A stretch of 64,000 nt of DNA from assembly GCF_003334405.1 (NCBI RefSeq), contig NZ_QOWM01000005.1; one strand, given 5' to 3'. Origin of the DNA: Escherichia coli (lineage in GTDB: Bacteria; Pseudomonadota; Gammaproteobacteria; Enterobacterales; Enterobacteriaceae). This document shows positions 37,301 to 40,300 of this stretch, piece after piece; the stretch's first letter is position 1, and each line of letters starts with the position of its first letter. Position numbers: made by a program.

Positions 37301-40300
37301 GTGCGCTTGACCGCAAACTGGCATCACACTTGCGGGAAATTCGATAAATAGCACATATGATTAAAACTCAGACCCAAGTGGTCGGATCACCTGCATATCA
37401 TAAGAAGGAAACACCATGACCCTACGCAAGATTCTGGCACTCACCTGCCTGCTGTTGCCGATGATGGCTTCCGCACATCAGTTCGAAACCGGTCAGCGAG
37501 TGCCGCCGATTGGCATTACCGATCGAGGCGAGTTGGTGCTTGATAAAGATCAGTTTAGCTACAAAACCTGGAACAGCGCACAGTTAGTGGGAAAAGTGCG
37601 AGTACTGCAACATATTGCTGGTCGCACCTCTGCAAAAGAGAAAAACGCGACGCTGATTGAAGCGATTAAATCAGCGAAGTTACCGCACGATCGCTACCAG
37701 ACCACCACCATTGTTAACACCGACGACGCGATTCCGGGTTCAGGGATGTTTGTGCGCAGCAGTCTGGAGAGTAATAAAAAGCTTTATCCCTGGTCGCAGT
37801 TTATTGTCGATAGCAATGGCGTCGCGCGCGGTGCCTGGCAGCTGGATGAAGAAAGTTCCGCTGTAGTGGTGCTGGATAAGGATGGTCGCGTGCAATGGGC
37901 CAAAGACGGGGCGCTCACACAGGAAGAGGTGCAGCAAGTGATGGACCTGCTGCATAAATTAATTAATAAATAGACACTCTGAATCCCGGATTCAGGAACG
38001 ACTCGCGCGGAGTGTAATCCAGCGGTTTACCCTGCCAGTCATGAACGTGCGCTCCGGCAGCTGCAGCCACAGCATGACCAGCGGCGGTATCCCAAATATT
38101 CGTTGGTCCGAAGCGCGGGTACAGCTGCGCCTGCCCTTCCGCCACCAGGCAGAATTTCAGCGAAGAGCCGATGGACGTGGTCTGATGTTCGCCAAGCTGT
38201 TGCAGATACTCTTTCAGCTCCGCATCTGCATGGGAACGGCTGATAACCACCAGCGGCGGGCGCGCATCGCGGACCTGAATCTGCTTGCGCACACCGCACT
38301 CTTCTTTCCAGGCCTTGCCTTCTGCCGCGCTGTACATTATGTTCATTACCGGCGCATACACCACACCTAAAATCGGTTTGCCATGGTCAATGAGCGCAAT
38401 GTTAACGGTGAATTCGCCATTACGTTTAATAAACTCTTTAGTACCATCCAGCGGGTCTACCAGCCAGTAACGCTGCCAGTGCTGACGGACTTCCCAACCG
38501 GGAGGATCTTCTTCAGAAAGGACCGGAATATCCGGTGTCAGCGTACGTAAACCGTCCATGATAACGGTGTGAGCGGCAATATCCGCTGCCGTTACCGGAG
38601 AATTGTCCGCTTTGCTGACGACGTCCATCGGTTTCGTCCCGTCGTAGACCTGCATAATGGCATCGCCTGCATTCCGTGCAAGCTGGCATACTTGATCTAA
38701 CATTTCTCCACCTCGTCTCTGTGAGCGGTGTTAACTTATTGTTTTACTTATACCCTATCGTTAATGAATGCGCCAACTGTGATAGTGTCATCATTTTCAA
38801 AGCGTAAAATTGTGGCATTCTTCACTGTTCTATAAGTAAGGCGTTTATTCTCCCTTTTCTTTCGTATTCCCGATGATAAAAGGATGTCCCTGATGATTAA
38901 GTTTAGCGCAACGCTCCTGGCCACGCTGATTGCCGCCAGTGTGAATGCAGCGACGGTCGATCTACGTATCATGGAAACCACTGATCTGCATAGCAACATG
39001 ATGGATTTCGATTATTACAAAGACACCGCCACGGAAAAATTCGGACTGGTACGTACGGCAAGCCTGATTAACGATGCCCGCAATGAAGTGAAAAACAGCG
39101 TACTGGTCGATAACGGCGATTTGATTCAGGGGAGTCCGCTGGCCGATTACATATCGGCGAAAGGATTAAAAGCAGGTGATGTTCATCCGGTTTATAAGGC
39201 GCTGAATACGCTGGATTATACGGTCGGTACACTCGGCAATCATGAATTTAACTACGGTCTGGATTACCTGAAAAATGCGTTGGCGGGAGCGAAATTCCCT
39301 TATGTAAATGCCAACGTCATTGACGCCAGAACCAAACAGCCAATGTTTACACCGTATTTAATTAAAGATACCGAAGTGGTCGATAAAGACGGAAAAAAAC
39401 AGACGCTGAAGATTGGCTATATTGGCGTCGTGCCGCCGCAAATCATGGGCTGGGATAAAGCTAATTTATCCGGAAAAGTGACGGTGAATGATATTACCGA
39501 AACCGTGCGCAAATACGTGCCTGAAATGCGCGAGAAAGGTGCCGATGTCGTTGTCGTTCTGGCGCATTCCGGGCTATCTGCCGATCCGTATAAAGTGATG
39601 GCGGAAAACTCAGTTTATTACCTCAGTGAAATTCCTGGCGTTAACGCCATTATGTTTGGCCATGCTCACGCCGTTTTCCCAGGTAAAGATTTTGCTGATA
39701 TCGAAGGGGCTGATATCGCGAAAGGCACGCTGAATGGTGTTCCGGCGGTAATGCCGGGCATGTGGGGCGATCATCTTGGGGTGGTCGACTTACAACTCAG
39801 TAATAACAGCGGTAAATGGCAGGTGACGCAGGCGAAAGCGGAAGCACGGCCGATTTACGACATCGCCAATAAAAAATCCCTCGCGGCGGAAGACAGCAAG
39901 CTGGTAGAAACACTCAAAGCCGATCACGATGCCACACGCCAGTTCGTCAGCAAGCCAATCGGTAAATCCGCCGACAATATGTATAGCTATCTGGCGCTGG
40001 TGCAGGACGATCCGACCGTGCAGGTGGTGAACAACGCGCAAAAAGCGTATGTCGAGCATTACATTCAGGGCGATCCGGATCTGGCAAAACTGCCGGTGCT
40101 TTCAGCTGCTGCACCGTTTAAAGTTGGTGGTCGCAAAAATGATCCGGCAAGCTATGTGGAGGTGGAAAAAGGCCAGTTGACCTTCCGTAATGCCGCCGAT
40201 CTTTATCTCTACCCCAATACGCTGATTGTGGTGAAAGCCAGCGGTAAAGAGGTGAAAGAGTGGCTGGAGTGCTCCGCCGGACAGTTTAACCAGATTGATC

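What the first reader, a model, noticed from the sequence alone, without database searches (positions are those of the whole stretch)
37963..37994. Convergent overlap of ytfJ and cysQ 3' ends with an embedded palindrome; no intervening gene
The ytfJ (+) and cysQ (-) stop codons overlap by about 11 nt, and a near-perfect palindrome (ctgaatcc c ggattcag, about 37978-37994) sits at the junction inside the cysQ 3' coding end, likely a shared bidirectional terminator. As I recall K-12 has an extra gene (ytfI) between cysQ and ytfJ; there is no room for one here.
Basis: partly seen in the sequence, partly recalled or inferred. Interest (0 to 1): 0.3.

Follow-up and report, generated by a model that had tools for sequence, protein, structure and literature searches.

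The report
Ancestral tail-to-tail overlap of ytfJ and cysQ
Two ordinary E. coli genes on opposite strands share their last 11 bases, an old arrangement kept in most E. coli and across related genera; the small palindrome beside it comes from codon choice, and the "missing" K-12 gene ytfI is an accessory insert that most strains never had.

Summary
ytfJ (+, 37416-37973) and cysQ (-, 37963-38703) overlap by 11 nt (TTAATAAATAG).

It carries a 1212-bp AT-rich islet with ytfI between the two stop codons.

The polarity is the reverse of what the finding implies:
- The compact junction is in 3796 of 5426 complete E. coli genomes; the islet is in 1623.
- The same overlap (11, 7 or 4 nt) occurs in about 73 of 80 Enterobacteriaceae species genomes sampled.
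- The ytfI insertion is already published (PMC4720273, S10 Fig).

The terminator idea is not supported:
- The hairpin is weak, -5.6 kcal/mol against -18 to -19 for the real bidirectional terminator one gene away.
- It has no U-tract on the ytfJ strand.
- On the cysQ strand it sits 14 nt before the stop codon.
- Five of its eight pairs are forced by the invariant peptide LNPGFR.
- The other three are unpaired in 60-71 of 80 orthologous sequences.
- Covariation does not exceed shuffles.

Transcript ends probably form further downstream, by Rho or polymerase collision; this is inferred and untested. The finding is ordinary and already known, so interest is low.

The parts
37416..37973 (+). ytfJ coding sequence (185 aa, YtfJ family periplasmic protein), stop TAG 37971-37973
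   Evidence: ORF list. NCBIfam TIGR01626 ytfJ_HI0045, E 4.4e-92, 306.8 bits against a cut-off of 151. RefSeq annotation of an identical locus.
37963..38703 (-). cysQ coding sequence (246 aa, 3'(2'),5'-bisphosphate nucleotidase), stop TAA = tta 37963-37965 on the + strand
   Evidence: ORF list. RefSeq annotation of identical and related loci. 99% identical to K-12 CysQ.
37963..37973 (.). 11-nt tail-to-tail overlap TTAATAAATAG, shared by the last codons and stops of both genes
   Evidence: The same register (T[CT]A[AG]TAAATAG) occurs in Citrobacter, Salmonella, Klebsiella, Raoultella and Kosakonia. 7-nt and 4-nt variants occur in Enterobacter, Kluyvera, Lelliottia and others.
37979..37995 (.). 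Palindrome CTGAATCC-c-GGATTCAG inside cysQ codons L237-N-P-G-F-R242. As RNA it forms 7 bp with a 3-nt loop, dG -5.6 kcal/mol on either strand. Judged a by-product of codon choice, not a terminator.
   Evidence: energies. (flagged only on the - strand, 7 pairs with 3 GC). (not conserved outside Escherichia, no covariation).

Best explanation
This is an ordinary, ancestral tail-to-tail overlap of two housekeeping genes. The last three sense codons and stop of ytfJ and the last two sense codons and stop of cysQ are written on opposite strands of the same A/T-only 11-mer. The lineage of this window never received the ytfI islet that K-12 and about 30% of E. coli carry at this point. The adjacent palindrome is a side effect of coding. 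The invariant CysQ peptide L-N-P-G-F-R fixes five of the eight pairs: AAy against TTy, CCn against GGn, and C of CTn against G of the Arg codon. The synonymous choices CTG, AAT, GGA and AGA used in Escherichia complete it. It is not a dedicated terminator. With no intergenic DNA, each transcript most likely runs past its stop codon into the antisense of the partner gene. There it is probably ended by Rho acting on untranslated RNA, by head-on polymerase collision, or both, followed by 3' trimming. Shown here: the anatomy, the distribution, the ancestry and the lack of structural conservation. Inferred: the way the 3' ends form.
For: The overlap is confirmed in sequence and in RefSeq annotation. 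The compact junction is in 3796 of 5426 complete E. coli genomes; the ytfI islet is in 1623. Of 80 species-representative loci, all but seven overlap by 11, 7 or 4 nt. Those seven are L009, L011, L047, L064, L065 and L072, which carry an insert or spacer, plus L030, whose cysQ 3' end contains an N and was not scored. The islet is AT-rich (GC 0.35 against 0.50 in the flanks). It is described in the literature as an H-NS-bound K-12-specific insertion absent from SE11 and SE15 (PMC4720273). The peptide [13 protein letters not shown] is near-invariant while the palindrome scores 8/8 only in Escherichia and 5/8 in most other genera. On the 80-sequence alignment, 65.5% of cells pair against 64.3% in shuffles, three pairs never vary, and three are unpaired in 60-71 of 80 sequences. 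Hairpin dG is -5.6 against -18.1 and -19.2 for the paeA/ytfK bidirectional terminator 1.1 kb away. The + strand tail is GAACGACUCGCG, with no U-tract. On the - strand the stem ends at 37979 and the stop codon is at 37965-37963, so canonical termination 7-9 nt after the stem would give stop-less cysQ mRNA. RNA downstream of the cysQ stop is C-rich and G-poor (C/G 1.6-2.0 over the first 160 nt), which fits Rho loading. A derived loss of ytfI looks different: ETEC1738 lost it through an IS1 deletion that also truncates ytfJ.
Against: No 3'-end data exist for a strain with the compact junction, so the Rho or collision step is untested. The consensus scan does flag the - strand hairpin as terminator-like, with tail AGUGUCUAUU, followed by a 20-nt A/U-only run. 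In cysQ-sense RNA the common K-12-type allele keeps the stem through a G.U wobble (dG -5.0). The hairpin is therefore retained throughout the Escherichia sequences sampled. By my own rough estimate from recalled E. coli codon usage, which is not a tool result, the chance of completing the palindrome from the peptide is only a few per thousand at this one site. C/G skew downstream of the ytfJ stop is weak (1.0-1.3 for the first 300 nt).
Confidence: 0.85

Rival explanations
1. The palindrome is a shared bidirectional intrinsic terminator that ends both the ytfJ and cysQ transcripts at the junction.
For: A perfect 8+8 palindrome sits 6 nt after the ytfJ stop. The consensus scan flags it on the - strand. 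An A/U-only 20-mer follows it on the - strand. The stem is retained in the Escherichia sequences sampled on the cysQ-sense strand, with G.U in the K-12 allele.
Against: dG is only -5.6 kcal/mol with 3 G-C pairs, against -18 to -19 for the neighbouring bona fide terminator. There is no U-tract on the + strand. On the + strand RNA the allele carried by at least 2801 of 5426 E. coli genomes has a C.A mismatch in mid-stem (dG -1.6). On the - strand the stem is inside the translated cysQ frame, 14 nt before the stop, so ribosomes would melt it and any termination would give non-stop mRNA. The hairpin is absent from more than 65 orthologous overlapping junctions in other genera. There is no covariation.
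Confidence: 0.05
2. The compact junction in this strain is derived: a precise deletion of a ytfI islet that was ancestral in E. coli.
For: The islet is old within Escherichia. A 69%-identical YtfI with homologous islet ends occurs in a divergent 'E. coli' species representative (L009). It is also spread over several lineages, including K-12, O157:H7, O145, APEC and ETEC. Losses do occur.
Against: The window junction is collinear, base for base and in the same -11 register, with Citrobacter, Salmonella, Klebsiella and other Escherichia species that have no islet. Observed losses are messy: IS66/IS2 disruption in M719 and an IS1 deletion truncating ytfJ in ETEC1738. Islet carriers have a different YtfJ C-terminus (QKLLK* against HKLINK*), so a deletion would have to restore the outgroup-type end exactly. 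No direct repeats of 9 nt or more flank the islet that could drive precise excision.
Confidence: 0.07
3. The overlap works as a regulatory 'excludon': convergent transcription of ytfJ and cysQ yields complementary 3' ends, so expression of one gene represses the other through RNase III cleavage or transcriptional interference.
For: With no terminator between them, the transcripts must overlap by at least 11 nt and probably much more (inference). The arrangement is conserved across the family. Excludons are documented in other bacteria (PMC7154746 and PMC12288877, listed; only abstracts seen).
Against: There are no expression data here. Conservation of the overlap is equally explained by absence of any pressure to separate two weakly expressed genes. 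30% of E. coli and several other species have split the pair with unrelated inserts that bring their own hairpins, with no sign of cost. No functional link between CysQ and YtfJ is known to me (own knowledge).
Confidence: 0.1

Closest known systems
Tail-to-tail (convergent) overlapping gene pairs in bacterial genomes
   Same: Two real genes on opposite strands share a short 3' stretch (4-11 nt) that contains both stop codons. The stretch is A/T-rich and conserved among related genomes.
   Different: Nothing of note. At 11 nt it is longer than the minimal 4-nt TTAA form, which itself occurs here in Kluyvera, Yokenella and Trabulsiella.
E. coli K-12 cysQ-ytfI-ytfJ locus (b4214-b4216)
   Same: The flanking genes cpdB, cysQ, ytfJ, ytfK and paeA are in the same order, with 97-99% protein identity.
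   Different: K-12 has a 1212-bp AT-rich islet with the orphan gene ytfI and two hairpins of its own (dG -21 after cysQ, -17 after ytfI/ytfJ). It also has a different YtfJ C-terminus (QKLLK*) and a mismatch in the palindrome on the + strand. The window has none of these. The difference is published: PMC4720273, S10 Fig.
Bidirectional intrinsic terminators between convergent genes, for example the paeA/ytfK hairpin at window 36838-36862
   Same: A palindrome near a convergent junction, readable as a hairpin on both strands.
   Different: The paeA/ytfK element has 10-11 bp with 7 G-C pairs, dG -18 to -19, lies in intergenic DNA and has T-rich tails. The junction palindrome has 7 bp with 3 G-C pairs and dG -5.6. 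It lies in coding sequence, has no + strand U-tract and is not conserved.

Membership tests
Convergent (tail-to-tail) overlapping gene pair | Two ORFs on opposite strands whose 3' ends share nucleotides | tested here: met
   ytfJ ends at 37973 and cysQ ends at 37963, an 11-nt overlap. RefSeq annotation agrees.
Convergent (tail-to-tail) overlapping gene pair | Both ORFs are real, conserved genes | tested here: met
   YtfJ matches TIGR01626 at E 4.4e-92, above the curated cut-off. CysQ and YtfJ orthologues of 75-98% identity sit in the same arrangement in 80 species genomes.
Convergent (tail-to-tail) overlapping gene pair | The overlap is conserved in related genomes, so it is not an annotation or sequencing artefact | tested here: met
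   Overlaps of 11, 7 or 4 nt occur in about 73 of 80 loci and the junction is intact in 3796 E. coli genomes.
Intrinsic (Rho-independent) terminator, bidirectional | Stable G+C-rich stem-loop | tested here: not met
   7 bp with 3 G-C pairs, dG -5.6 kcal/mol. The neighbouring terminator folds at -18.1 and -19.2.
Intrinsic (Rho-independent) terminator, bidirectional | U-tract immediately 3' of the stem on each transcribed strand | tested here: not met
   The + strand tail is GAACGACUCGCG, with no U run, and the scan does not flag it. The - strand tail AGUGUCUAUU is marginal, with 5 U in an 8-nt frame starting 2 nt after the stem.
Intrinsic (Rho-independent) terminator, bidirectional | Located downstream of the stop codon of the gene it terminates | tested here: not met
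   This is met for ytfJ, where the stem starts 6 nt after TAG. It is not met for cysQ, where the stem lies in codons 237-242 and ends 14 nt upstream of the stop.
Intrinsic (Rho-independent) terminator, bidirectional | The structure is conserved or covaries in orthologous loci | tested here: not met
   65.5% of cells pair against 64.3% in shuffles. Three of seven pairs are unpaired in 60-71 of 80 sequences. dG is -1.9 or weaker outside Escherichia.
Intrinsic (Rho-independent) terminator, bidirectional | Mapped RNA 3' ends at the element | not testable with these tools
   No Term-seq data for a compact-junction strain were found. Literature searches for cysQ with ytfJ or with terminator terms gave nothing relevant.
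ytfI accessory islet (K-12 type) | About 1.2 kb of AT-rich DNA encoding YtfI between the cysQ and ytfJ stops | tested here: not met
   The window has an 11-nt overlap and no intervening DNA. The islet is found in 1623 of 5426 genomes and this window groups with the 3796 that lack it.
Repeated palindromic elements (REP/BIME-like) | The same palindrome recurs at many intergenic sites | tested here: not met
   There is a single occurrence in the 64-kb window at up to 2 mismatches, and it lies in coding sequence. No Rfam family matches at the junction.

The most novel reading that the evidence does not exclude
The Escherichia-specific hairpin, which uses the rare AGA Arg codon and is kept on the cysQ-sense strand in every Escherichia sequence sampled, could be a weak translation-sensitive attenuator. 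Followed by the 20-nt A/U-only run, it might act as a 3'-end or RNase site that trims cysQ or ytfJ read-through RNA in strains with no intergenic spacer. Separately, the junction has taken up at least four unrelated cargoes in different lineages: ytfI, a pentapeptide-repeat protein, a radical-SAM/SPASM cassette and a DD-carboxypeptidase-like gene. It might therefore be a preferred landing site.
Probability: 0.07. Interest if true: 0.3.

Novelty: already known. Interest (0 to 1): 0.08.

Why it matters
It matters little beyond housekeeping. It shows that K-12 is the atypical reference at this locus and that ytfI is an H-NS-silenced orphan islet carried by about 30% of strains. It also warns that a palindrome next to a gene junction can arise purely from codons for a conserved peptide. 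The locus could serve as a natural test case for how transcripts of convergent genes with no intergenic DNA are ended, because isogenic-like strains with and without an islet that brings its own terminators exist in nature.

Tried and rejected
1. Bidirectional terminator: rejected on stem energy, missing U-tract, position inside the cysQ frame, and lack of conservation or covariation.
2. Known RNA family at the junction: the Rfam E-value scan of 36500-39500 found only ES239 sRNA, well away from the junction.
3. Repeated element (REP-like): the palindrome occurs once in the window.
4. Secondary precise deletion of ytfI: judged unlikely because the junction is collinear with outgroups, no flanking repeats exist, and real losses are IS-mediated and messy.
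5. Special insertion hotspot: the neighbouring convergent junction paeA/ytfK also carries an insert or rearrangement in at least 11 of 77 loci. The two divergent junctions have none (0/78 and 0/76). This is the usual tolerance of 3'-3' junctions.
6. Function for YtfI: no hit in Pfam, NCBIfam or PHROGs, and only a sub-threshold PADLOC hit (Cas6b, E 8e-4, no significant domain stretch) that I treat as noise.
7. Literature on 3'-end mapping of cysQ or ytfJ: nothing relevant found.
8. My first palindrome-conservation table used only the + strand. It overstated how far the K-12 allele breaks the stem, because on cysQ-sense RNA the change is a G.U wobble. This was corrected.

Full report
**Observation.** The sequence and ORF list show ytfJ on the + strand at 37416-37973, with stop TAG at 37971-37973. 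They show cysQ on the - strand at 37963-38703, with its stop codon TAA written tta at 37963-37965. The two reading frames share the 11 nt TTAATAAATAG (37963-37973). RefSeq annotates exactly this in a 100%-identical strain (ytfJ 1217-1774 +, cysQ 1764-2504 -). YtfJ matches NCBIfam TIGR01626 at E 4.4e-92.

The palindrome CTGAATCC-c-GGATTCAG is perfect, with 8+8 arms. That places it 6 nt after the ytfJ stop and inside cysQ codons L237-R242.

**Comparison with K-12.** MG1655 has cysQ (b4214), ytfI (b4215) and ytfJ (b4216), with 1212 bp between the two stop codons.

The polarity is the opposite of what the finding implies:
- A 601-bp probe across the junction is matched in one piece by 3796 of 5426 complete E. 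coli genomes and is split in the rest.
- The K-12 islet is found in 1623 genomes, including O157:H7, O145 and some APEC and ETEC strains.
- The islet has GC 0.35 against 0.50 for its flanks.
- Higashi et al. 2016 (PMC4720273, S10 Fig) describe it as a K-12-specific, H-NS-bound insertion between cysQ and ytfJ that is absent from SE11 and SE15.
- YtfI has no match in Pfam, NCBIfam or PHROGs, and only a noise-level PADLOC hit.

**Ancestry.** A scan of one genome per species with YtfJ returned 80 loci. I located both stop codons in each.
- The two genes overlap by 11 nt in Escherichia whittamii and other Escherichia, most Citrobacter, Salmonella, Klebsiella, Raoultella and Kosakonia.
- They overlap by 7 nt in Enterobacter, Lelliottia, Leclercia and Pluralibacter.
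- They overlap by 4 nt in several Kluyvera, Yokenella and Trabulsiella.
- Six loci have something in between:
  - L009, a divergent 'E. coli' with a 69%-identical YtfI
  - L011, E. albertii, 1504 bp
  - L047, Citrobacter youngae ATCC 29220, 2120 bp
  - L064 and L065, two Kluyvera, about 905 bp
  - L072, K. intermedia, 71 bp
- One further locus, L030, was not scored because its cysQ 3' end contains an N.

The window junction is collinear base for base with the outgroups. Retention of the ancestral state is the parsimonious reading. Real losses of ytfI look different. Strain M719 has IS66/IS2 disruption. ETEC1738 has an IS1 deletion that also truncates ytfJ.

**The palindrome.** As RNA it forms 7 bp with a 3-nt loop and folds at -5.6 kcal/mol on either strand. 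The bidirectional terminator between paeA and ytfK, 1.1 kb away at 36838-36862, folds at -18.1 and -19.2.
- On the + strand the stem is followed by GAACGACUCGCG, with no U-tract, and the consensus scan does not flag it.
- On the - strand the scan does flag it, with tail AGUGUCUAUU.
- On that strand, however, the stem lies within the translated cysQ frame and ends 14 nt before the stop codon.
- A ribosome would therefore occupy it, and canonical termination 7-9 nt after the stem would yield stop-less mRNA. This last point is inference from established terminator geometry.

**Conservation of the palindrome.**
- The peptide [13 protein letters not shown] is essentially invariant across the 80 loci. 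The palindrome scores 8/8 only in Escherichia and 5/8 in most other genera.
- Those five pairs are dictated by codon positions 1-2 of Asn/Phe and Pro/Gly and by Leu position 1 against Arg position 2.
- The other three depend on the synonymous choices CTG, AAT, GGA and AGA.
- On an 80-sequence alignment (A1), 65.5% of cells pair against 64.3% in shuffles. Three pairs never vary. Three are unpaired in 60-71 of 80 sequences. Covariation does not exceed the controls.
- Outside Escherichia the best fold of the 17-mer is -1.9 kcal/mol or weaker.
- Within E. coli the window's exact 41-mer is in 1112 genomes. The K-12-type allele is in 2801, more than the number of islet carriers.
- That allele puts a C.A mismatch in the stem of + strand RNA (dG -1.6). 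In cysQ-sense RNA it gives only a G.U wobble (dG -5.0).
- The palindrome occurs once in the window, and no Rfam family matches at the junction.

I conclude that the palindrome is a coding by-product, not a shared terminator.

**How the 3' ends probably form (inferred).** With no intergenic DNA and no credible intrinsic terminator, each transcript should continue into the antisense of its partner. It would then be ended by Rho on untranslated RNA, by head-on polymerase collision, or both. The first 160 nt after the cysQ stop are C-rich and G-poor (C/G 1.6-2.0), which suits Rho loading. The stretch after the ytfJ stop is less skewed (1.0-1.3). In islet-bearing strains the insert supplies its own hairpins, -21 kcal/mol just after cysQ and -17 after ytfI/ytfJ. 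No 3'-end data for a compact-junction strain were found.

**Side question: is the junction an insertion hotspot?** The inserts in other lineages are unrelated to ytfI:
- E. albertii carries a pentapeptide-repeat protein.
- C. youngae carries a TIGR04222 membrane protein with a Cys/Gly/Ser-rich tail plus a radical-SAM/SPASM enzyme. The insert is flanked by a 32-bp exact direct repeat of the ytfJ 3' end.
- Kluyvera carries a DD-carboxypeptidase-like gene.

As a control I measured the three neighbouring junctions in the same loci. The convergent paeA/ytfK junction also carries an insert or rearrangement in at least 11 of 77 loci. The divergent ytfK/ytfJ and cysQ/cpdB junctions have none (0/78 and 0/76). 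This is the general tolerance of 3'-3' junctions, not a property of this site.

**Verdict.** The finding is a real but ordinary feature. It is an ancestral 11-nt tail-to-tail overlap, a codon-derived palindrome with no support as a terminator, and the absence of an accessory islet whose presence/absence polymorphism is already published.
- Novelty: already known.
- Interest: low.

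Noticed in passing
window 38770-38892 (-): Rfam ES239 sRNA match (154.5 bits, E 2.5e-31, full length) in the divergent cysQ-cpdB intergenic region. It is on the cysQ strand, upstream of the cysQ start (38703), and overlaps the cpdB start (38884).
   Followed up: no
window 36838-36862: A strong bidirectional terminator-like hairpin between the convergent genes paeA (ytfL) and ytfK, with a 10-11 bp stem, 7 G-C pairs and dG -18 to -19 kcal/mol on both strands. I used it as the internal comparator for a real terminator at a convergent junction.
   Followed up: partly
L047 3559-5678 (Citrobacter youngae ATCC 29220): A 2120-bp insert at the same ytfJ/cysQ junction. It encodes a TIGR04222 membrane protein with a Cys/Gly/Ser-rich C-terminal tail and a radical-SAM/SPASM enzyme, a RiPP-like pair. 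It is bounded by a 32-bp exact direct repeat of the ytfJ 3' end (CAGCAGGTGATTGCCCTGCTGCACAAATTGCT).
   Followed up: partly
L011 3556-5059 (Escherichia albertii NBRC 107761): A 1504-bp AT-rich insert (GC 0.33) at the same junction. It encodes a 385-aa pentapeptide-repeat protein (Pfam PF00805) with a weak resemblance to the N-terminal region of a type III effector family.
   Followed up: partly
L064 and L065 (Kluyvera genomosp. 1, K. cryocrescens), about 905 bp between ytfJ and cysQ: An insert encoding a 291-aa protein resembling a serine DD-carboxypeptidase (S11), with GC like the flanks. K. intermedia (L072) has only a 71-bp spacer at the same place.
   Followed up: partly
L001 3997-5208 (K-12 islet): YtfI (312 aa) is an orphan with no Pfam, NCBIfam or PHROG family. 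A 69%-identical homologue sits in a homologous islet in a divergent Escherichia genome (L009), so the islet is old. The islet carries its own hairpins at both ends (dG -21 and -17).
   Followed up: partly
L005 (strain M719) and L086 (strain ETEC1738): Secondary decay of the ytfI islet. In M719, ytfI is interrupted by IS66-family and IS2 elements. In ETEC1738, an IS1 has deleted ytfI and the 3' end of ytfJ, leaving 164 bp of the islet next to cysQ.
   Followed up: partly
Loci L017, L019-L021, L026, L038, L044-L046, L055, L056: upstream of ytfK: In Klebsiella, Raoultella and some other genera the paeA 3' end is not within about 2.4 kb of ytfK. In Pluralibacter gergoviae it is 1.2 kb away. The neighbouring convergent junction is therefore also variable.
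   Followed up: no
window 37953-37973: The YtfJ C-terminus varies between alleles: HKLINK* here, HKLLNK* in E. whittamii, and QKLLK* in ytfI-islet carriers. The islet insertion thus remodelled the last codons of ytfJ while leaving the CysQ end (...RVSIY*) intact.
   Followed up: partly
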